A DNA stretch of 64,000 nt from an uncultured delta proteobacterium (GTDB taxonomy: Bacteria; Desulfobacterota; Binatia; UBA9968). The notes under the pieces were generated by a model that was not told the DNA's origin, ran no database searches, and worked only from the letters and a program-made list of their open reading frames with translations. The stretch covers positions 256,001 to 320,000 of the forward strand of contig CAVUZH010000003.1 of the NCBI GenBank assembly GCA_963745835.1. The letters run 5' to 3'. Made by a program: the position numbers and the translations under genes. Of this stretch, positions 49,178 to 59,847 are shown piece after piece; position 1 is the stretch's first letter, and every line of letters begins with the position of its first letter.

Positions 49178-50186
49178 GTGCAGAAACCATCATTCAACTC
49201 CTGGTACCTAGCGCTTAGCTCTGCCTTCTTCTTGTCTGTATTCGCCGGCCACAGCGGCGCGCAGATCAAATCCGAAAAGCTTCACGTAGGCTATAGCGCC
49301 CAGGCAGGTTCTCTGGCGCCAATATGGATTACCAAGGAAGCGGGCATTTTTAAAAAGCATGGTCTGGATGTTGAACTGCTCTTCATCCCCGGTGGCCCTA
49401 CCGCTGCAGCGGCGCTGATGTCGGGCGAGGTGCCGATTACAGTCGTCGGCGGGCCGGCAGTGGTTAGCAGTAATCTCGCTGGATCCGATCTGGTCATGAT
49501 CGCCGGCATCGTGAACACCTTCGCTTTTCAGATCATTTCCGTCAAAACGATTACCTCGTATCAGCAGCTAAAAGGTAAGCGCCTTGGCGTGAACCGCTTT
49601 GGCGCTTCGCCGGACGTCGCTGCGCGCTTTGCTTTGAAGCACATGGGCATCGATTTGAGGGACATAACCATCCTGCAGTTGGGCGAGCAATCGACCAGGC
49701 TCACGGCGATGATGGCTGGACAACTGGAAGCGGCGGTCTTTTTGCCGCCGATCACGACCATGGCGCAGAAGCAGGGCATGAACGTGCTCCTGGATCTGGC
49801 GGAATTAGGAGCGGAGTTCCAGATTACCGGATTGGGCAGCAGCCAGAGATTTCTAACGCAACAAAGGCCCACGGCTATCAAATTTATGCGGGCTTTCGTG
49901 GAGGGAATTCATTACTTCAAGACGCACAAGCCCGAAAGCATGAAAACGATTGCCAAGTACATGAAGGTCAGTGACATGGAAGCAGTCAGCGCAACCTACG
50001 ATTATTTCGCTCCCAAGAGTTGTGCCGCAGAAACCTTACCCATCTCTCAAAGGAATCAAAGCACTTATCGATCTCGCTGCCGTGGAGAAACCTGAGCTGA
50101 GGAATGTTTCTCCCGACCGTTTTGTGAACACAACGATTTTAAAAGAAGTGGACGACAGCGGATTCATCGATCGTTTGTATCGGTAA
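49178..50186 (+). CDS. ABC-type substrate-binding protein, NMT1/SsuA-like (frameshift near 50017)
   Basis: GIFKKHGLDVEL and LKGKRLG. The C-terminal VVPQKPYPS...DDSGFIDRLYR lies in the +1 frame. Confidence 0.85.
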
Positions 50187-51527: not shown

Positions 51528-51866
51528 TTACTTCCGAGTGGATCCAGGAGAAAAGTATTCGGCGCGACTGACGGCGACGTCTGAGACGAACATCACTCCG
51601 GTGTAGCGGTCGAACAGAGGTTTCAAGCCGGCCAAAATCGGCTCGACTTTCTCAGGCGCGACGACTGACATTAACATGACGATGCTGTCTATCTCGTTGA
51701 ACATCGGATGGGCCGTGTGAAAACCGTGATGCCCTTTTCCGGAAATGTTGTGGATGATGGTATAGCCGGTGGCCTTGTTGTCGAGCAAGTCGGTTGCGAA
51801 TTTCAAGTGCTCTCCCTGGATGACAATCCTGATTTCCTTCATCGGATGAAGCGTGAGATTGCTCAT
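51528..51866 (-). CDS. PII-like (SbtB-type) regulator of the DAB operon
   Basis: 112 aa; ATGYTI...SGKGHHG, G.MFVSDV.V.R..YF; directly downstream of dabA. Confidence 0.8.
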   Translation of the reverse strand: MSNLTLHPMKEIRIVIQGEHLKFATDLLDNKATGYTIIHNISGKGHHGFHTAHPMFNEIDSIVMLMSVVAPEKVEPILAGLKPLFDRYTGVMFVSDVAVSRAEYFSPGSTRK

Positions 51867-51878
51867 GCTGATCTCCTT

Positions 51879-54800
51879 TCAAACGAATCTCTGGACACGA
51901 GATGAACACTTTGGATTCACAGCCTGCCACCCTTCTTTGGGAACGTACCGGTAAGCTAGCTGCGCTTCAGGCTCGATGGCGATGAGATACAGCCATTGGT
52001 TATCGTACAGTCGCTGCAAATGGCGTTGGTTGCTGATGATTTTATCGATTCTTTCCCTGGGCGCCTCCACCAGGGTCACGAGCCGCATCGGCTCATGGTA
52101 GGGCCGCATTCCATTCATGACCGTCTGCCAGGCCAGGCCGGTGCGCAGGTCGCTCTGGGGACCGGACATAATCCCAAAGCGGCCGACTACGTTGTGGTAG
52201 ATTTTGCTACCGCTGCCGTAGCCCGCCGGATCCACTACGGAAAAGTAATGCTCCATATTGATCCATTGTCCGACGATCTGCGGTCCGGCCATCACGACCT
52301 CGAGCAAGCGGCCGTCCGGATCTTCACGGTAATCGTAAGAATGCAGAAAGGCCCGGGCGTCAAGATTGATGCCGCGGGTCAAAGCGCGGCGCCCAATGAT
52401 AAATGCGGCATTGCCGGATAGCCCCCATTCGGGACGGACCTGGCTCCAGTCGGCGCTTCGGCGGTGTACCGTGCGCCGGGCTTTCGAAGCGCCCAGGCTT
52501 ACCTTGATCTCGGGAAATCTAGCGCATCGCTCTTGGCTGTTGCGCGCTCCCGCCGATTCAAGATCGCGGACTAGTTGGAGCAGATCCTTGCGGTGAGTAG
52601 GGGGGAGATCTTCCAGATCGAAGAGATCGATGTCATCGGTGGTGGTATTGTGTTGTCCGGCGATGAAGTAGGTGTCCTGCGGAATGGCAATGCCGTTCTT
52701 GGCGAGCTGCTCCCGCACCAGGGGTTTGTTCGCCATGATCGCCAGCACCCTCGCGTTGGGCTTGCCCGGGTTGCCGCCACAGGCGCCGCAATCGAGAGCC
52801 GCTTCGAAGGGGTTGTTCTCGGAGGTGCTGCCATGGCCGCAAAAAAGCACGAGACGGGCAAAGTTCCGCGTCAGCCCCATCATTCTTAGCGCGGTTTCCA
52901 CGGTGAAGACTTGCTCGCTGAGAGTGAACCCGGTCCGGGTGATACGCTCCATACGAGCAAATGACGCGCCCGGGTTGATGCCGTGGTTTCGCCTGAGATC
53001 TTCAACAAATGCCGCTTCTTCTTCGCGGGAAAGCGCGGTGGAGCGCGCCTGCGGCGATGGTTCCCCCGCGCTCTGTCCGTCGAGCGCCCGCCGACGCAAA
53101 AACTCCAAGCGTTCCAGCGATAGGTTCAGATGGCGCTCACCGAAATTTTCCTGCAGCGCGCGGCGGGTAATTGCGCGCTGTTCCGCCGCCAACATTTCCT
53201 CTACTTCTTCGCGTGACAGTTTGTCTACAGTCAAAGTCGTCGCTACCGGCGGGACCATCTTGCGCCGAAGCCAGCTCATGACGTTTCTATACCAGGTTGG
53301 CCAAAGGGTCTTGCCGACAAAGGGCAGGCTGTAAAACCAACCCAGCGACTCCACCATGACATACGGAGTGACGACATTTTCCTTAAGATCGTAGAGCAGG
53401 GTGTGTCCGGTTTCGAGAAGTTTTTCCCGGTGCCGGCGTCTGAATAAATAGTGGCCTTGATAGGTCCGGGGAATCTCGCGGACCAAATTTTTAGTCTTCA
53501 TGATTACCGGAAACTGATCGGTTTCATGATGGCTGCCGAGGCCCTGGTAGCGGATGAAGACGGCGAAAAAACCTGCGAAGCCGAAGGTCTCGTAATCGCC
53601 AATCGCTTCCAAGTGACGCCGGATCGACTCCGAACGGACGTCGATGCAAAACACCGCCTGCGCCTGATGACGTACTTTTATTTCACCCGGCAATTCGCTT
53701 TGCTCCCCGGCTGGCGCAGATGGGCTTCGACCGGAAGCGACTTGGCTGGCTTGACCGAGGTTTACGGGGAGCTTGCCCAGCAGTTCTTCCTGGTATCCCG
53801 CCTCGAACGCCCTGAGCCATATGGGCCCATGGTCCGCTTCAGGAAATCCATCGATCCACTCGAGCAGTGTCAGCAGGTTGCCGGGCTCGCTTTGCATCAG
53901 AATACCGGAATCATGTCCGAGAGCTTGCGCAAGTGCGAACAAGCGCCAGGCGCCGACGAGAGCTGCCGGGCTATGCTCCTGTGCTTGGCCGAAATATTTC
54001 GGAGATAAGTTGTCGCGCCGCTGCATCTCAGTCAATATTGCATCGATGTTGCCGTCGATGCCGAGCGATTGACGACAGGCTTTTTGCACCAACTCACGTT
54101 CATACCAAACTCGCACCGCAAGATACTGCGCCAGATCGACGGGATAGGCGAGCTGCCATTCATATTCACTTTGATCGGCGCGCCATTTGATGAAGCCCGC
54201 CCATCCCGATAGAGCCACGAGGTGAAGCGAGAGATAATCCTGCCGGGCATCGACCGGGATACCAAGGGTCGCTAAACTTTCGAGCAGCGCATCTTCCGGC
54301 TGCTCCGGCAATCGGCCCAGCTTCTCGCGACTGTTCTCGATTGCTGCGGGAGACCATTCCTGTTGAGCGAGAAATCTCCAGGCGGCGTAGAAACCCTTCT
54401 CACGCCGCGGCATAGGCCAGGTGGCATGACCTTCGTCCAAAAACGCCTCGCACCATTTAACCAATTCACGGTTAATTTGCTCGCCGATTTGGGTGCCCAG
54501 GGTGCGATCGCACCAGCTGGCCAGCATCAGAGTTCGACCGAGATCTCCCTGCTCTGCGGTAGCCCGCCAGCTCTGCGGCGGTTTCGCAGCCGACGTCAGA
54601 TGATTTGCCAGCGATTTGATCGCGTTGCGCTCGGGATGGCGCTCGAGCAGAGTGGCGAAACTGTCATCAGGAGGAGGAGAAAGATCTTGCAGCATGCAGG
54701 CGCGAAGCACGGCCCCGAGAGTCACGTCATGAGCGCCTAATTGGACGTGCCTGTTTTCTGCGCGCGCTTTTAGCGCGGCATCGAGTTGATCGGGCAGAAT

Positions 54801-55049
54801 CCGGCCCGAGCGGAAATAGTCGCGAAAAACTTCAACGGACAAATAACCCTTGCCGTCGAGCAATCGCTCAGCCCGAGAAATGGCCTCTTCAAAATGGAGA
54901 TACTCCAGGCCGTGTAGCGGATTGTGGTGCACGAATGTGCGCATGGGCCAGTAATCGGCAATGACCTCGCTCGCCAGTAGGATCAACGCTCGGAGCTCAC
55001 TCCGCTGGGATTCGCTGTACTGTGTTGCTGCCATTTGTGCCGTAGTCAT
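51879..55049 (-). CDS. dabA: DabA/DUF2309 (UPF0753) inorganic carbon transporter catalytic subunit
   Basis: WP..TFVHHNPL, FCIDVRSE, GHGS, LDCGACGG (Zn ligands), RPEWGL, FLHSY and HEP.RL; ATGA overlap with dabB. Confidence 0.93.
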   Translation of the reverse strand: MTTAQMAATQYSESQRSELRALILLASEVIADYWPMRTFVHHNPLHGLEYLHFEEAISRAERLLDGKGYLSVEVFRDYFRSGRILPDQLDAALKARAENRHVQLGAHDVTLGAVLRACMLQDLSPPPDDSFATLLERHPERNAIKSLANHLTSAAKPPQSWRATAEQGDLGRTLMLASWCDRTLGTQIGEQINRELVKWCEAFLDEGHATWPMPRREKGFYAAWRFLAQQEWSPAAIENSREKLGRLPEQPEDALLESLATLGIPVDARQDYLSLHLVALSGWAGFIKWRADQSEYEWQLAYPVDLAQYLAVRVWYERELVQKACRQSLGIDGNIDAILTEMQRRDNLSPKYFGQAQEHSPAALVGAWRLFALAQALGHDSGILMQSEPGNLLTLLEWIDGFPEADHGPIWLRAFEAGYQEELLGKLPVNLGQASQVASGRSPSAPAGEQSELPGEIKVRHQAQAVFCIDVRSESIRRHLEAIGDYETFGFAGFFAVFIRYQGLGSHHETDQFPVIMKTKNLVREIPRTYQGHYLFRRRHREKLLETGHTLLYDLKENVVTPYVMVESLGWFYSLPFVGKTLWPTWYRNVMSWLRRKMVPPVATTLTVDKLSREEVEEMLAAEQRAITRRALQENFGERHLNLSLERLEFLRRRALDGQSAGEPSPQARSTALSREEEAAFVEDLRRNHGINPGASFARMERITRTGFTLSEQVFTVETALRMMGLTRNFARLVLFCGHGSTSENNPFEAALDCGACGGNPGKPNARVLAIMANKPLVREQLAKNGIAIPQDTYFIAGQHNTTTDDIDLFDLEDLPPTHRKDLLQLVRDLESAGARNSQERCARFPEIKVSLGASKARRTVHRRSADWSQVRPEWGLSGNAAFIIGRRALTRGINLDARAFLHSYDYREDPDGRLLEVVMAGPQIVGQWINMEHYFSVVDPAGYGSGSKIYHNVVGRFGIMSGPQSDLRTGLAWQTVMNGMRPYHEPMRLVTLVEAPRERIDKIISNQRHLQRLYDNQWLYLIAIEPEAQLAYRYVPKEGWQAVNPKCSSRVQRFV

Positions 55050-57620
55050 CTCCATGGCATGCGAGTGCCGTGCGCCAGTGGAACGGTTTCGAACCAATCA
55101 AGCGGCACGGCGCCGAGGGCGATTAGAATCAGCAGCAGAAGCGCGAACACCGCAACCTCACTTGTTTGGAAGTCGTTATAGCGAATATCGGAGCGGTGCG
55201 GACCAAACAGAAGCCGCTGCATCATTCTGAACAAATACCACGATGCCAAGAACCAGGTGAATAGAATCACCATCAGTCCCCACGAAACCGTAGCCGAAGC
55301 CTGCAGCAACATCGCCACATATGCGGAAAAAACGCCAAACGGAAGCAGCCCTAAGGCCGCCATAACCAACAAAGAAAACACGGTAGCAAAGCGGGGCATC
55401 GGCCCTGCCAAACCGTGCATGCCGTCTAAAGTCAAATCGCCGTACCGTCCACGTACGCGTTCCCAAGCAAGGAGCAGTCCGGCGGAAATCAATATTGTCG
55501 TGACCAAGTAGATGATTGCTTGAACAGCCAGATTTCCTGTAATGCCGAGACTCCACCACAGAGCTGAAAAGAAAGCTACGCCGGCGTAGGCCACAAGTTG
55601 CGGAACTCTCGTTTGACCCAAAGCTTTGAGCGATCCATACACCGCGCCGAATAAGGCCAGCACGCTTACGGCACGAAGAGTCTCGACCGGAAGATCCGGC
55701 ATCAACTGAGCGATCCCGAACACTCCCGCCGCCGGCAGCAGCATGGCGAGGACTACTGCTTGATATCCTGGCCAGCGCGTGAGCGCAGCCACGTAGATTC
55801 CGTGCAGGGGAAAGAGTGGTAGCAGAATAGCAATCAAGATGAATAACCCGATTTCCGCCGGCTGACCCGGCAGCCGCGCGCCGAAGGCTAGTGCCGAGCC
55901 AATGGCGATCAAAGCTGCCAGATACGGGAAGACTCTGCTTGCATTCAGACGATCGACCTCACCTCTAAAGAGTTGGGTGAATCTGATGGCTAGCGCATCG
56001 AGGTAGAGTCGATTCATCAAAAGCAGGTAAATACGAACCCGTAAGTGATTCACCCATTCCGGCATGCCGATCGTTCGCCCATGGCTCTCTGCATAAATCA
56101 GAATCCAGCCAAGAATGATGACCAAGGCAAACGCCGATACCAAGACATCGAACAGTAGGACCGGTAAAGCGCCGGCTTGAAAGTGGGCAGCTACCTGGCC
56201 CGGCGCCGGAAATAAGAAGTGTGTGAAGCTTTCCGCTGCCAGCAGATAGGTGATGACCACGAGGAAGAGTGTAAAGAGCATGCTCATAGCCACCTTCCAA
56301 GTAGCGACCGCCCGCAGGCGATATAGTGTCAGGATGGCTTGGGAAGAGGTGGCCCAGCCGAAGAAGAGAAAGATCGTCGTTCCCTGTGAATCTCTCAATG
56401 GAATGCGCAGGATGCCATGAGCCGCTAGCAGGATGATCAACGGAAGGATCAGGGTTGTAAGAAATCCGGTGAGCCAGGTGAGAGTCGAAAATTGACTTCT
56501 CTCGATTCCCTCACTCTTGGGAGGCAGTCGGGGTTCTTGGCGAGCGGCATGAATCACGTAGCCGCAATTTAAAAATATCGTGCCTTTAAACAGGCCATGG
56601 GCGATTAAGTGAAAGATTGCAAGGCCGTAGGCGCCCAGACCGCATTCCATAATCATAAAGCCCATCTGTCCAATGGTTGAATAGCCCAAGCGTCTTCTTG
56701 ATGTCGTTCTGAACCAGCATCATGGAAGAACCCAGCAGAGTAGTAACCATGCCGACGGCGAAGACCAGATGGAGCGTTGGCGGATTCAAATCGTAGAGCG
56801 GCGCCAGACGGGTCAAGAGAAAACCGCCTGCGTTGATAATTCCGGCGTGCAGCAGGGCATGGACCGGTGTCGGCGCGTACAGAGAATCGGGCAGCCACAT
56901 GTGCAATGGAAACTGCGCCGACTTGGTCATGGCGCCGATGAAAATCAATAGAGTGACGGCGGTGTCGGCGCGCATCTCGAAGCTACCGCCGGGCCCGAGA
57001 AAGAGCGAGCTTTGGACCTCGGCAGCGCGCAAAAACAGCTGCTGAAAATCCAAGCTGCCATACGTGCGATACGCCAGCACGATTGCGGCGAGAAAGGCAA
57101 CGTCGCCGATGCGCTGCATAACAAATGTTCTAAAGGCGCCCCGGACTGTTAGTGAGTGGCTGTAGTTGTGAGACAGGAGCGGCACGAGCCAACTCAGCAG
57201 TTGCCAGAATATGAAGAGCATTAGTAGATTGGCGCTCGACACCATGCCGAACAGAACGAAACCGGTAAAAGCCAGTAAGCTGTGAAAGCGAGTATATCCG
57301 CGCTCCTGTTGCATGTAGCGGATCGAAAATAGATGGATCAGGATACTGATTGCGGCGATATGCACGAGCATCACCGACGAAAGCCGATCAATGTGCAAAC
57401 CGAATTGTAAGATCCCGTCGTGCCAGGATGATAAATGGATGGTTTGCGGTCCGCGAGTGGTTACTTCGTAAAGGACCAGCAGCGAGAGCGCGAAAGAAAT
57501 CACTTCCGCCGCCACGCCGATCCGGCCAGCCTTAGGGCCGAGCGTGCGTCCCAGAAGGCCGATGATCAATCCCGCCGCCAACGGCAAAAGGAGTATCAAC
57601 GCAGGATAATAAGCGAGCAT
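55046..57620 (-). CDS. dabB: DabB (NuoL/ND5-like) membrane subunit with an extra C-terminal antiporter-like domain (frameshift near 56686)
   Basis: KSAQFPLHMWLP, APTPV.ALLHAG.INAGG. Removing one base from CCC 56685-56687 gives KKTLGYSTIGQMG...HLIAHGLFK; about 857 aa. Confidence 0.88.
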
Positions 57621-57705
57621 GATCTTGGTCTAGAACCTGTCAATGCATAATATGACGATAAAAGATCGTCGTCTCGTTTGAGAAATAGCTGCCGCGCCGC
57701 AAGCC

Positions 57706-57735
57706 AAAAAAAGCCGGCCCTTTGAAGAGCCGGCT
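57706..57735 (-). terminator. Intrinsic terminator within the dabB 5' leader
   Basis: Minus strand AGCCGGCUCU-UCAA-AGGGCCGGCU followed by U6, ending 85 nt upstream of the dabB ATG. Confidence 0.85.
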
Positions 57736-57741
57736 AGTCCA

Positions 57742-57776
57742 TACCGATCCCAACTGCCTGCTTCAGGCTATCGGTA
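57742..57776 (-). ncRNA. Candidate riboswitch aptamer / attenuator hairpin
   Basis: UACCGAU-A-GCCUG-AAG-CAGGC-AGUUGGG-AUCGGUA: two stems with a 1x7 internal loop, 6 nt before the terminator. Confidence 0.6.
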
Positions 57777-57786
57777 GAATTTTTTT

Positions 57787-57815
57787 ACCATAGCGTATGA
57801 CTTTAGGGCAGTAAA
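57787..57815 (-). promoter_or_regulatory. Putative sigma-70 promoter of the dab operon
   Basis: TTTACT-N17-TATGGT; the predicted start lies just 5' of the hairpin. Confidence 0.5.
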
Positions 57816-58038
57816 GCCATTGCATCCGCTCATGAGCCGAATAGCAGCCGCCTTTTGATTCACCAGGCACCGAACTGTGCTGATTAGCAAACCGGATGAT
57901 GGTCAGATTGCTTGCCGCCCGCCAGTAGCGATGCTAAAGACATAGCCACTCATGACGACTTAGTTTGTTTGCGCGCGAAATCGTAAAGGTGATCGTTAGA
58001 CGGAAAAGCATGGTTTTTCAACTAGGACACTAATTTAT

Positions 58039-58941
58039 ATGGATGCGTACGATATTGTAGTAGCCGGCGGCGGAATGGCCGGCCTGAGTGCTGCTCTGTA
58101 CGGCGGCTGGCTGGGACATACGGTTTTCCTTGCCGAACGGCAGATGTTTGGCGGGCAGATTGTCAACGCCGATCAGATCGAGAATTATCCGGGCTTCCCG
58201 GACGGTGTTTTGGGTGCTGACTTGGTGTCGCAAGTGCGCATGCAAGCGTTAAAGCTCGGCGCAAAGATGCAATACCTCGAAATGACCGGCATTAAGACTG
58301 AGGGAGACGGGTTCCAATTGGCTACGGCGGAGGAACCGATTCAAGCAAAGACCGTGATCGTTGCGACAGGGGGCAATCACCGGGTTCTCGGAATCAGGGG
58401 AGAAGCCGAATTCGAAGGCCGGGGCGTTTCCCGCTGTGCTACTTGCGATGGCGCATTTTTCCGGGACCAGCCTGTGGCAGTCGTTGGCGGCGGTGATACA
58501 GCTCTCGATGAAGCTTTGTATCTTTCAAAGATTGCCTCACGGGTCACCATCATCCTTCAAGAGGCAACGCCTATCGCGAGCGAAACTCTATTGCGCCGTG
58601 CGCGAGAGAATCCGAAGATCGAGTTTGTCGCAAATGCAACGCTTGAAGAAATTTCCGGTAACCATTCGATCGAATCACTACGCTTGAATAACGGAACTCA
58701 TGTCCCGGTTGCCGGCGTATTTGTCGCCATTGGGTTCGAACCTGAGACCAGTCTTTTGAAGAATCTCGTGGAGCTGGACCCGATCGGGCATGCGCCGGTG
58801 GACATTCATATGCAGACCACCGTGCCTGGACTCTTCGCCGTCGGATCGGCGCGGCAAGGAAACGCCGGACAACTTGTAAGCGCGGCCGGGGATGGCGTTA
58901 CCGCAGCGCTGGCGGCGCACCGGTACCTTATGAATATTTGA
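58039..58941 (+). CDS. Thioredoxin reductase-like FAD-dependent disulfide reductase
   Basis: GGG.AG, GGQ...IENYPGF, GVS.CATCDG and GGGDTA. Confidence 0.9.
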   Translation: MDAYDIVVAGGGMAGLSAALYGGWLGHTVFLAERQMFGGQIVNADQIENYPGFPDGVLGADLVSQVRMQALKLGAKMQYLEMTGIKTEGDGFQLATAEEPIQAKTVIVATGGNHRVLGIRGEAEFEGRGVSRCATCDGAFFRDQPVAVVGGGDTALDEALYLSKIASRVTIILQEATPIASETLLRRARENPKIEFVANATLEEISGNHSIESLRLNNGTHVPVAGVFVAIGFEPETSLLKNLVELDPIGHAPVDIHMQTTVPGLFAVGSARQGNAGQLVSAAGDGVTAALAAHRYLMNI

Positions 58942-59310: not shown

Positions 59311-59847
59311 ATGGCAATGCTCAAGATGCTTGACCCAAGAGCCAGTGTAAATCCCGAAGAGCGGCCTCTGATGCCGGGCTTGGATTCGCTGGAAGGGAAG
59401 GTAATCGGCATTATCGACAACGGCCAATCAAATTCCACGGCGATGTTCCAAGAATTGGCGAAGTTGATGCGGGAAAAATTTCAAACAGCAGAAATAGTTT
59501 TTAAGACGAAGCCCTCGCATATGCAGGGAGCGCCCAGGCCGATTATAGAGGAATTCGTCAGCCGTTGTGATGCGGTGATCACCGGCCTGGGAGCTTGAGG
59601 GTCGTGCACGTCGTGGAGTGTCCACGACGCCATCGAGCTGCAAAAAAAGGGAAAGCCGACAGTTACTCTGTGTCAATCGATTTTCATGGAGCTGGCCAAG
59701 ACCGAAGCGAAGTTCTTTGGGCTCGCTACGCTTCCATTGGTGGAAATTCCACATCATCCGAGCGGCGGCGCCAGAGCCGGCGAGCATCGCGCCGATGCCG
59801 AAGGAGCGGTGGATTTGGTGCGCCAGCGGCTGACACTGGCGATATAG
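59311..59847 (+). CDS. UGSC-motif selenoprotein (Sec at TGA 59596-59598), 178 aa
   Basis: Reading through the TGA gives ...[31 protein letters not shown]...LPLVEIPHHP...TLAI, ending at TAG 59845-59847; AGGAGG RBS. Confidence 0.88.
59609..59629 (+). promoter_or_regulatory. Bacterial SECIS-like hairpin
   Basis: CGTCGTGGA-GTG-TCCACGACG is a perfect 9-bp stem starting 10 nt after the TGA, with a G-led loop. Confidence 0.7.

What the first reader, a model, noticed from the sequence alone, without database searches (positions are those of the whole stretch)
57706..57815. Candidate riboswitch controlling the DAB CO2/bicarbonate pump
Seen on the minus strand, in order: promoter-like TTTACT-N17-TATGGT, a 35-nt hairpin (7-bp P1, 5-bp P2, A opposite AGUUGGG), 6 nt, a 10-bp terminator with U-tract, then 85 nt to the dabB ATG. 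The neighbouring gene is divergent, so this terminator has no upstream gene to end and would instead attenuate dab transcription. Known: small two-stem aptamers followed by terminators include the Na+ (DUF1646) and nhaA-I/II classes, and MpsAB-type pumps are proposed to be Na+-coupled. Inference: an ion-, pH- or bicarbonate-responsive switch on a carbon-concentrating operon. I cannot assign the class, and no strong antiterminator is obvious.
Basis: partly seen in the sequence, partly recalled or inferred. Interest (0 to 1): 0.85.

Follow-up and report, generated by a model that had tools for sequence, protein, structure and literature searches.

The report
New leader RNA before CO2-pump genes
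The hairpin-plus-terminator in front of the dabB CO2-pump gene is real and is a diverged copy of a previously undescribed leader RNA family of Binatia bacteria that sits in front of several membrane and carbon-related genes, but what switches it is still unknown.

Summary
No Rfam family matches, including the Na+ and Li+ classes.

The element is one diverged copy of a wider leader RNA family. My covariance models find this family in 40 of 90 genomes of the window's taxonomic family, with 58 matches. A second copy lies elsewhere in the window's own genome.

The family's canonical unit is:
- a promoter;
- an imperfect hairpin with conserved internal loops and a variable, covarying tip;
- an intrinsic terminator.

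This unit is often followed by a second, related unit. Downstream genes are dabB, a TauC-like permease, MpsC with TerC or HtpX, PurC and others. A type-A mpsC gene ends 28-62 nt upstream of 35 of 44 testable non-dab leaders.

The window's copy keeps the promoter, the conserved sequence blocks and the terminator. It has lost the canonical hairpin pairing.

I read it as a cis-acting transcription attenuator. Its effector, ligand or protein, is not identified.

The parts
57787..57815 (-). Promoter-like site: -35 TTTACT (57815-57810), 17-nt spacer, -10 TATGGT (57792-57787).
   Evidence: Read from the sequence. The consensus scan does not list it; by my own count it matches 8 of 12 positions. It is conserved in relatives. 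In the wider family, TTGACN-N16-18-TANNNN ends at the same distance from the element in 41 of 56 distinct upstream regions. The transcription start is inferred, not shown.
57742..57776 (-). 5' hairpin region, homologous to the family's 'unit 1' hairpin. It keeps the conserved blocks GAUAGCCUGAAG and GGGAUCGGU. The canonical pairing (b:b', P2) is lost and is replaced by a lineage-specific fold: UACCGAU/AUCGGUA or CCGAU/GUUGG, plus GCCUG/CAGGC.
   Evidence: folds; the window fits 3 of 9 b:b' pairs and 2 of 5 P2 pairs, by my reading of alignment A3; matches models R1 and R2 at 70.4 and 65.7 bits, but the window was in the training alignments.
57736..57741 (-). 6-nt linker UGGACU between the hairpin and the terminator.
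57706..57735 (-). Intrinsic terminator T1: stem AGCCGGCUCU/AGGGCCGGCU, loop UCAA, U7.
   Evidence: 10 pairs, 7 G-C. (-17.7 kcal/mol); 99% of cells paired in 15 dab-type sequences, with both-sided changes in the family.
57742..57750 (-). Candidate antiterminator strand GGAUCGGU(A). It can pair with the terminator's 5' arm GCCGG.CU (57734-57727) before the 3' arm is made.
   Evidence: Nascent-RNA minimum-energy fold, -18.0 kcal/mol. The helix is weak. Family analogue: GUYGG pairs with CCGAC in 45 non-dab sequences. This is inference.
57621..57705 (-). 85-nt spacer to dabB. It occupies the position where relatives carry the second unit (hairpin plus terminator T2). No unit 2 is recognisable here, and there is no clear Shine-Dalgarno sequence.
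   Evidence: Model R3 finds no match in the window at E<=0.1, while it finds unit 2 in other leaders. Alignment A2.
51528..57620 (-). The controlled operon:
- dabB: 57620 to about 55046, split by a 1-nt insertion near 56691.
- dabA: 55097-51879.
- PII-like gene: 51866-51528.
   Evidence: Pfam. (frameshift).

Best explanation
The element is the 5' leader of the dabB-dabA-PII operon. It is a diverged member of a leader RNA family that is absent from Rfam and that I could not find described.

Proposed mechanism:
- Transcription starts about 7 nt after TATGGT.
- A short hairpin region is made first, followed at once by a strong intrinsic terminator.
- By default most transcripts should stop at the U-tract, giving an RNA of roughly 75 nt.
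- dab expression then needs read-through.
- Read-through would occur when the 3' strand of the hairpin region (GGAUCGGU in the window, GUYGG in canonical members) pairs with the terminator's 5' arm instead of with its hairpin partner.

What tips this balance is not identified. For the family, my leading candidate is a trans-acting factor, the small MpsC (DUF2294) protein whose gene almost always lies directly upstream of canonical leaders. Direct sensing of a small ligand or ion by the RNA is the main alternative.

Shown: the sequence features, homology, covariation of the hairpin and terminator in the family, gene contexts, and the linkage to mpsC.

Inferred: the transcription start, termination in vivo, the alternative pairing, and any effector.
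For: 1. Anatomy is as described.

2. The promoter-to-terminator block is the conserved core of the intergenic region in 6 genomes, always upstream of dabB.

3. With model R1, 12 of 27 DabB loci searched carry it at E<=0.01. Six true metagenome homologues all precede dabB. One of them (L154) has about 14 nt between the U-tract and the ATG, which leaves no room for another promoter.

4. Family distribution with model R2:
- 40 of 90 genomes of the taxonomic family, 58 matches, 1-4 per genome.
- 4 of 151 genomes of the class, all 4 inside that family.
- 2 copies in the window's own genome.

5. Structure on 71 distinct sequences:
- 89.8% of cells paired, against 77.8% in shuffles and at most 44.5% when the partners are slid.
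- 18 of 22 pairs show changes on both sides.
- Covariation score 0.484 against 0.268, reached by 0 of 500 shuffles.
On 45 non-dab sequences, the lower helix is 87% paired, P2 93% and the terminator 98%.

6. The strand GUYGG is complementary to the terminator arm CCGAC in 42-45 of 45 non-dab sequences at each of 5 pairs.

7. In tandem leaders the open reading frames start 22-23 nt after the second U-tract.

8. A promoter consensus ends at the element's start in 41 of 56 upstream regions.

9. Type-A mpsC ends 28-62 nt upstream of 35 of 44 testable non-dab leaders and 3 of 14 testable dab-type leaders. Across the 90 genomes: RNA and MpsC-A together 36, RNA only 4, MpsC only 4, neither 46.

10. 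The window's own genome encodes one MpsC-A next to its canonical leader.
Against: - The window's copy does not keep the family's hairpin: 3 of 9 and 2 of 5 pairs. It has no mpsC next to it. So it may no longer be regulated.
- The antiterminator is weak. Median energies are -7.2 kcal/mol against -20.6 for the hairpin and -18.9 for the terminator in 45 non-dab units, and -4.7, -10.1 and -17.7 in 15 dab units. It appears in the nascent-RNA minimum-energy fold of only 4 of 45 non-dab and 1 of 15 dab sequences.
- The terminator arm is nearly invariant, so the alternative pairing has no covariation support.
- A second candidate pairing, the 5' flank with the terminator arm, is no better between cognate than non-cognate partners: -5.91 against -5.48 kcal/mol.
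- RNAalifold on the 15 dab-type sequences predicts only the terminator.
- Two genomes with dab-type leaders (G007 and G081, 96% and 92% complete) show no MpsC-A at E<=1e-20.
- MpsC has no known RNA-binding activity. Its type-A pI is 5.9-8.0. Its model only weakly resembles Bet3 and H-NOX folds: best E 0.014, none at E<=0.001.
- There is no transcript evidence. Read laying did not complete.
- dabB carries a frameshift in this assembly.
- Alignments A4-A6 were fitted to the model's structure, which leans the pair counts towards it.
Confidence: 0.55

Rival explanations
1. Direct riboswitch. The leader RNA itself binds an ion or small molecule (Na+, Li+, H+/pH, bicarbonate or a related metabolite) and thereby sets termination at T1.
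For: - This is a conserved structured RNA with a variable covarying tip, invariant internal-loop and flank nucleotides, its own terminator, and several unlinked gene contexts in one lineage. That is the usual signature of a riboswitch class.
- Tandem aptamer-plus-terminator units are known for riboswitches (PMC9337991, passages read).
- The regulated genes share a theme: DabBA-PII, MpsC, a NitT/TauT-type permease and PurC could all relate to inorganic-carbon supply.
- mpsA in S. aureus is down-regulated at 5% CO2 (PMC6689103, passage read).
Against: - No match to any of 4227 Rfam models, including the Na+ and Li+ classes.
- The hairpin is a simple stem with small internal loops. It is very stable without any ligand (median -20.6 kcal/mol), while the competing helix is weak.
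- The window's copy has lost the conserved pairing.
- The tight linkage to mpsC is more typical of protein-dependent attenuators. That comparison is recalled, from no call.
- The gene set also includes HtpX, TerC, TctC and a CRP-family regulator, so no single ligand is obvious.
Confidence: 0.2
2. Independent small RNA gene. Promoter, hairpin and terminator make a roughly 75-nt trans-acting sRNA that merely lies next to dabB, and dabB has its own promoter in the 85-nt spacer.
For: - The promoter-hairpin-terminator-U7 architecture equals that of a typical sRNA.
- There is a weak full-length resemblance to the sRNA SorX, at 13 bits and E 5.3.
- 13 runs on record as RNA, among 19 rows from 17 studies, hold small shares (0.05-0.21) of the 601-nt stretch. 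That would fit a short abundant RNA, but the runs were never laid, so this is no evidence.
Against: - The SorX score is far below its gathering score of 46.6.
- In homologues the next gene starts 2-23 nt (unit 2) or about 14 nt (L154) after the U-tract, with no room for a promoter.
- The element always has the orientation of the downstream gene in all 58 family matches examined.
- No promoter-like site is called in the spacer.
Confidence: 0.1
3. Decayed relic. In this lineage the leader has lost its sensor and now acts only as a constitutive partial terminator or insulator, or the whole dab operon is decaying.
For: - The canonical hairpin pairing is lost in the window, L029, L030 and L032 (aptamer energies of -8.6, -7.0, -0.9 and -1.5 kcal/mol).
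- Unit 2 is absent.
- No mpsC lies nearby.
- dabB has a 1-nt insertion relative to three relatives.
Against: - Promoter, sequence blocks and terminator stay conserved at 79-96% identity across the genus, while the flanks diverge.
- Relatives with the same leader variant (L029, L030, L032) have an open dabB frame of at least 773 codons.
- A new 7-bp helix (UACCGAU/AUCGGUA) is kept in 4 of 5 genus members, with one mismatch in the fifth (by my reading).
- The frameshift may be an assembly error.
Confidence: 0.15

Closest known systems
Na+ riboswitch (DUF1646 motif) and Li+ riboswitches (nhaA-I/II)
   Same: All are small hairpin-based leaders followed by intrinsic terminators, in front of ion- and transport-related genes. 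Tandem 'aptamer plus own terminator' arrangements occur (PMC9337991, passages read; PMC9646797 seen only as a search listing and abstract start).
   Different: - No covariance-model match.
- In the Na+ class the terminator forms at the expense of aptamer stem P2, and the conserved nucleotides sit at the base of P1 and in the P2 loop.
- Here the terminator is separate from the hairpin, the P2 loop is variable, and the conserved nucleotides sit in the lower helix, the internal loops and the 5' flank.
OFF-switch platform, as described for the c-di-AMP riboswitch in the tandem Na+/c-di-AMP system
   Same: The right shoulder of the closing helix can pair with the left shoulder of a separate terminator (PMC9337991, passage read). 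Here the pairing is GUYGG with CCGAC.
   Different: There is no sequence or model similarity. The alternative helix here is much weaker than the hairpin it competes with, so the direction of switching is not clear.
Protein-dependent attenuators whose regulator gene lies just upstream of its RNA target (HutP/hut, PyrR/pyr, GlcT or LicT with RAT)
   Same: The gene order is regulator, then promoter, then hairpin plus terminator, then target genes. This is seen for type-A mpsC in 35 of 44 testable canonical leaders. The comparison with these systems is recalled, from no call.
   Different: - MpsC is not known to bind RNA.
- Its predicted fold gives only weak matches to Bet3/TRAPP and H-NOX, none at E<=0.001.
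- The window's dab leader has no adjacent mpsC.
S. aureus mpsABC
   Same: Both involve DabB/DabA homologues (MpsA/MpsB) with an MpsC gene and a terminator between them. mpsA transcription responds to CO2 (PMC6689103, passages read).
   Different: - The gene order differs: mpsA-mpsB-terminator-mpsC there, against mpsC-leader-dabB-dabA in L046, L132 and L167.
- No homologous RNA has been shown in S. aureus, and I did not search for one.
[quoted passage not shown]

Membership tests
Na+ riboswitch (DUF1646 motif) | Match to the Rfam covariance model | tested here: not met
   - No match at E<=10 in window 57300-58300.
- None at the gathering score in the whole window.
- None at E<=1 in 10 homologous loci.
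- None at E<=5 in 6 more loci.
Na+ riboswitch (DUF1646 motif) | Two stems, with conserved nucleotides at the base of P1 and in the P2 loop; the terminator forms at the expense of P2 (PMC9337991) | tested here: not met
   The P2 loop is variable across the family. The terminator is a separate hairpin downstream.
Li+ riboswitches (nhaA-I, nhaA-II) | Match to the Rfam covariance models | tested here: not met
   That these models are in Rfam 15 is recalled; no call listed them.
SorX sRNA | Match at or above the gathering score (46.6 bits) | tested here: not met
   13 bits, E 5.3.
Intrinsic (Rho-independent) terminator | G+C-rich stem-loop followed directly by a U-tract | tested here: met
   10 pairs, 7 G-C, loop of 4, U7. 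Energy -17.7 kcal/mol.
Intrinsic (Rho-independent) terminator | Stem kept by compensatory changes in homologues | tested here: met
   - 2 of 8 pairs change on both sides in 15 dab-type sequences.
- 4 of 8 do so in 71 family sequences, with 98.1% of cells paired.
Intrinsic (Rho-independent) terminator | Transcripts end at the U-tract in vivo | not testable with these tools
   Read laying did not complete.
New Binatia leader family (models R1/R2, 'unit 1') | Sequence homology of the promoter-to-terminator block, and the same position before dabB | tested here: met
   - DNA matches of 73-96% identity over the block in relatives.
- Alignments A2 and A3.
- The model scores of 70.4 and 65.7 bits are not independent, because the window was in the training sets.
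New Binatia leader family (models R1/R2, 'unit 1') | Canonical hairpin: 9-bp lower helix, 2x2 internal loop, variable P2 | tested here: not met
   By my reading of A3, the window forms 3 of 9 lower-helix pairs and 2 of 5 P2 pairs. Nascent-fold count: 0 of 5.
New Binatia leader family (models R1/R2, 'unit 1') | Type-A mpsC gene ending 28-62 nt upstream | tested here: not met
   None within 600 nt upstream in the window. Met in 35 of 44 testable non-dab and 3 of 14 testable dab-type leaders.
Riboswitch (generic) | Conserved structured aptamer with covariation, found before several functionally linked genes | tested here: inconclusive
   Met for the family. Not met for the window's own copy. The functional link among the genes is only suggestive.
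Riboswitch (generic) | Mutually exclusive aptamer and expression-platform pairing | tested here: inconclusive
   A complementary strand exists. It is weak and lacks covariation.
Riboswitch (generic) | Direct, selective ligand binding by the RNA | not testable with these tools
   Needs in-line probing or in vitro transcription.
Protein-dependent attenuator (HutP/PyrR/RAT-like logic) | The adjacent gene product binds the leader RNA | not testable with these tools
   Only adjacency and co-occurrence are shown. The fold search gives no RNA-binding relative.

The most novel reading that the evidence does not exclude
The leader family and the adjacent MpsC protein together form a previously unrecognised regulatory module for inorganic-carbon supply genes: DabBA-PII, MpsC operons, a NitT/TauT-type permease and PurC.

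Two versions of this reading are open:
- The RNA itself senses bicarbonate, CO2 or pH. That would make it the first riboswitch for inorganic carbon.
- MpsC, a protein of unknown function that is dispensable for MpsAB activity in S. aureus, is a ligand-sensing factor that controls tandem terminators.

The window's dab leader would be a derived member that responds in trans.
Probability: 0.15. Interest if true: 0.9.

Novelty: new variant of a known kind. Interest (0 to 1): 0.62.

Why it matters
- How non-autotrophic bacteria regulate DAB/MpsAB inorganic-carbon pumps is largely unknown, and MpsC has no assigned function (PMC6689103, passages read).
- This analysis gives a defined RNA family of about 60 examples with covariation-supported structure, tandem terminators, and a tight physical link to mpsC. 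It occurs in an uncultured soil lineage (Binatia).
- It turns two open questions into bench tests: what signal controls dab/mps genes, and what MpsC does. The tests are reporter fusions, in vitro termination, and RNA-protein binding.
- For RNA biology it adds an orphan leader class that is absent from Rfam 15.
- For the window itself the message is more modest. The copy before dabB is a diverged member whose sensor part may be decayed.

Tried and rejected
- **Rfam.** Four searches found nothing. The best chance rows were SorX at 13 bits and Ysr49 at 23 bits against a gathering score of 95.

- **Leader peptide.** The AUG inside TATGGT would give MVKKFYR*, but it lies in the -10 hexamer and is not conserved; L004 reads MV* (my reading). 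Rejected.

- **Terminator for the + strand.** On the + strand the hairpin is preceded, not followed, by the T-run equivalent. Rejected.

- **Metagenome pattern scan.** Only 6 were true homologues (L132, L140, L154, L167, L178, L181). The rest lacked the promoter, terminator and dabB context and were dropped as chance matches.

- **P0 helix (5' flank with the terminator arm).** It appeared in some truncated folds. However, cognate partners are not better than non-cognate ones. Not adopted.

- **RNAalifold on the dab-type set.** It gave only the terminator. The hairpin model came from my own reading and was then tested.

- **Spread outside the family.** There were 0 hits in 143 other genomes of the class. 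One Nitrospirae-labelled MAG (G238) has a single copy, before dabB.

- **Literature.** No paper holds both terms of riboswitch + DUF2309, riboswitch + DUF2294, or riboswitch + Binatia. For riboswitch with DabA/DabB/inorganic carbon, the one paper among the 15 listed that holds both riboswitch and DabA is titled and abstracted as a synthetic-genetic-elements study, and I did not read it. DUF2294 alone gives one unrelated paper. Supplements were not seen. The supplementary gene tables of PMC9337991 might list NuoL- or DUF2309-type genes under Na+ riboswitches, and I could not check.

- **Transcript evidence.** The look-up of sequencing runs listed 13 runs on record as RNA with small shares, but they were never laid, so nothing is claimed from them.

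- **MpsC structure.** There is no PDB sequence relative at E<=1 and only weak Foldseek rows.

Full report
**1. The observation**

- TTTACT at 57815-57810, a 17-nt spacer, and TATGGT at 57792-57787.
- A 35-nt hairpin at 57776-57742: UACCGAU/AUCGGUA, then GCCUG-AAG-CAGGC, with a single A opposite AGUUGGG.
- A 6-nt linker.
- A 10-bp terminator stem at 57735-57712, whose last U begins a run of seven.
- 85 nt to the ATG.

The terminator is listed by the consensus scan, though 2 sites against 1.0 +/- 1.0 in shuffles is not significant alone. The scan does not list the promoter; by my own count it matches 8 of 12 consensus positions. Fold z-scores are modest, -2.6 and -2.9. So the features are real, but the sequence alone does not lift them above chance. 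Comparison with relatives does.

**2. The operon and the organism**

Downstream on the minus strand lie:
- dabB (Proton_antipo_N/M);
- dabA (PF10070, E 6e-274);
- a PII-like gene at 51866-51528.

Record titles of the nearest DabB loci name Candidatus Binatia MAGs. dabB is split into two frames. Against an 862-aa single-frame homologue the break lies near 56691. Three relatives lack one base there.

**3. Conservation before dabB**

A DNA search of 41 related genomes matched 7, the window's own genome among them. Matches L004, L005 and L007 cover only the promoter-to-terminator block. Of the other three, two (L002, L003) span most of the 418-nt query and one (L006) matches only its far upstream end, outside the block.

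Aligned, all six sequences of A2 lie just upstream of the dabB start. With the DabB N-terminus I fetched 80 loci. With model R1, 12 of the 27 DabB loci I searched carry the element at E<=0.01: L029-L035, L039, L043, L044, L046 and L051. The other 15 do not.

A metagenome pattern scan was mostly chance. It gave six true homologues, all before dabB. In L154 only about 14 nt separate the U-tract from the ATG. That argues for a cis leader rather than a separate gene.

**4.

- In L030, which is 91% identical, GCCUG has become AUCAG and no longer pairs with CAGGC.
- L031 and L032 also break it.
- All more distant dab-type leaders have another arrangement.

What is conserved is the sequence GAUAGCCYGAAR ... 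GGRAUYGGU. In the less derived members a long imperfect hairpin is also conserved. It has a lower helix (here called b:b'), a 2x2 purine internal loop, and an upper stem P2.

On 15 dab-type sequences this model has 85.6% of cells paired, against at most 47.5% when the partners are slid. RNAalifold alone, however, recovers only the terminator. By my reading of A3, the window forms only 3 of 9 and 2 of 5 of these pairs.

The window's genus has a 3-nt deletion relative to the other dab-type leaders. This deletion creates the new helix ACCGAU/AUCGGU.

**5. A wider family**

- Model R1, built from the 15 dab-type sequences, found weaker matches before other genes.
- Model R2, built from 20 sequences, finds 58 matches in 40 of 90 genomes of the taxonomic family, 1-4 per genome.
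- In a sample of 151 genomes of the class it finds matches in 4 genomes, all inside that family.
- The window's own genome holds a second copy at G000:C3:594666-594770.
- No Rfam family matches any version.

On alignment A6 (75 matches, 71 distinct):
- 89.8% of cells are paired, against 77.8% in shuffles and at most 44.5% when slid.
- 18 of 22 pairs change on both sides.
- The covariation score is 0.484 against 0.268, reached by 0 of 500 shuffles.

In 45 distinct non-dab units the lower helix is 87% paired (pair 23:83 reads GC 22, AU 16, GU 7), P2 is 93% paired (pair 29:77 reads UA 26, CG 17), and the terminator is 98% paired. P2 varies from 14 to 35 nt. These alignments were fitted to the model, which leans the counts towards it.

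**6. Tandem units**

Many leaders carry a second, related hairpin-plus-terminator unit directly after the first U-tract. Model R3, built from 13 such units, finds it:
- directly after unit 1 in 17 further leaders that were not in its training set;
- 360-390 nt downstream in two more;
- in Nitrospirae-labelled dabB leaders, at about 27 bits and E about 4e-5;
- weakly in two Binatia dab leaders.

It does not find it in the window at E<=0.1. Open reading frames start 22-23 nt after the second U-tract.

**7. Genes downstream**

| Downstream gene | Leaders |
|---|---|
| TauC/SsuC/NtrB-like permease | 18 |
| DabB | 15 |
| Small membrane peptide, then MpsC (DUF2294), then TerC or HtpX where seen (2 leaders each) | 7 |
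| Small peptide plus PurC | 7 |
| TctC | 3 |
| CRP-family regulator | 2 |
| Unknown proteins | remainder |

An inorganic-carbon theme is possible but not compelling.

**8. Linkage to mpsC**

A type-A mpsC gene of about 125 aa ends 28-62 nt upstream, on the same strand, of 35 of 44 testable non-dab leaders. The same holds for 3 of 14 testable dab-type leaders (L046, L167, L132), but not for the window.

The -35 TTGAC overlaps the mpsC stop codon. TTGACN-N16-18-TANNNN ends at the element's start in 41 of 56 distinct upstream regions.

Across the 90 genomes: RNA and MpsC-A together 36, RNA only 4, MpsC only 4, neither 46. Related genomes are not independent samples, and G012, an unpublished genome, is among the 36.

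On MpsC itself:
- It has no PDB sequence relative.
- Its model is confident, with pLDDT 89.
- It gives only weak matches to Bet3/TRAPP and H-NOX folds.
- Its pI is near neutral.
- In S. aureus, mpsC is dispensable for MpsAB function and mpsA is down-regulated at 5% CO2 (PMC6689103, passages read).

**9. Mechanism**

In canonical units the 3' strand of the lower helix (GUYGG) is complementary to the terminator's 5' arm (CCGAC) at five pairs, in 42-45 of 45 sequences. This is the layout described for OFF-type platforms (PMC9337991, passage read).

The case for a working switch is weak on energy grounds:
- The alternative helix has a median energy of -7.2 kcal/mol, against -20.6 for the hairpin and -18.9 for the terminator.
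- It appears in only 4 of 45 nascent-RNA folds.
- It has no covariation, because the terminator arm is nearly invariant.
- A second idea, pairing of the 5' flank with the terminator arm, fails a cognate-versus-non-cognate test.

In the window, the nascent-RNA minimum-energy fold (-18.0 kcal/mol) pairs GGAUCGGU with the terminator's 5' arm.

I therefore read the default state as termination, with read-through needing an effector. The direction and the nature of that effector are open.

**10. Verdict**

The riboswitch reading is partly supported. This is a conserved cis leader with a real terminator, belonging to a new RNA family. It is not a Na+ or Li+ class member, the drawn aptamer is lineage-specific, the window's copy is derived and possibly decayed, and the tight link to mpsC makes a protein effector at least as likely as a direct ligand. 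No transcript data could be obtained, because read laying did not complete.

Noticed in passing
window 56685-56700 (minus strand, inside dabB): dabB is split into two frames: ORFs 57620-56586 and 56689-55046. A single extra base near 56691 is absent from three relatives (L029, L030, L032). This is either a real frameshift or an assembly error.
   Followed up: partly
window 51528-51866 (-): A PII-like gene (PF00543, E 2.4e-19) lies directly after dabA, giving a dabB-dabA-PII operon.
   Followed up: partly
window 59311-59847 (+): A UGSC-family gene has an in-frame TGA at codon 96 (59596-59598), followed by GSC. Read with TGA=U it gives ...GLGAUGSCTSW... and runs on to a stop at codon 179. It is a candidate selenoprotein. 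I did not look for a SECIS element.
   Followed up: partly
own genome outside the window: G000:C3:594560-595201 (locus L286 7572-8202, -): A second, canonical copy of the leader (unit 1 plus unit 2). It lies directly after a type-A mpsC gene and before a TauC-like permease, a 93-aa ORF and a 560-aa DUF2235/Tle1-like hydrolase.
   Followed up: yes
L033, L034, L035, L039, L046 (second terminator of dab leaders): The 3' arm and U-tract of the second terminator contain a Shine-Dalgarno-like GGAG, plus an ATG or GTG opening a mini-ORF (MLAFF* or similar). Its first residues resemble the DabB N-terminus (MLAYYP). Seen by eye in the output and not tested.
   Followed up: no
leaders L235, L239, L246, L247 and others: A conserved 30-36-aa membrane peptide (MEKWxPIFWIxGxG...) is the first ORF after many leaders, ahead of type-B MpsC or PurC. 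It has no Pfam family.
   Followed up: no
mpsC 3' ends, e.g. L240 1463-1500: The conserved -35 hexamer TTGAC of the leader promoter overlaps the TGA stop codon of type-A mpsC. The third base of the last codon is kept as T.
   Followed up: partly
MpsC model (own genome, L286 7798-8202): The predicted fold (helix, two strands, two helices (the second long), two strands; pLDDT 89) gives its best, weak Foldseek rows to Bet3/TPC6 (TRAPP), H-NOX sensor domains and B. subtilis YslB. None reaches E<=0.001.
   Followed up: partly
window 49178-50095 (+): An NMT1/THI5-like binding protein (the NitT/TauT type of ABC transporter) lies about 2 kb beyond the dab operon on the other strand. A relation to the leader family's TauC-like permeases was not examined.
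   Followed up: no
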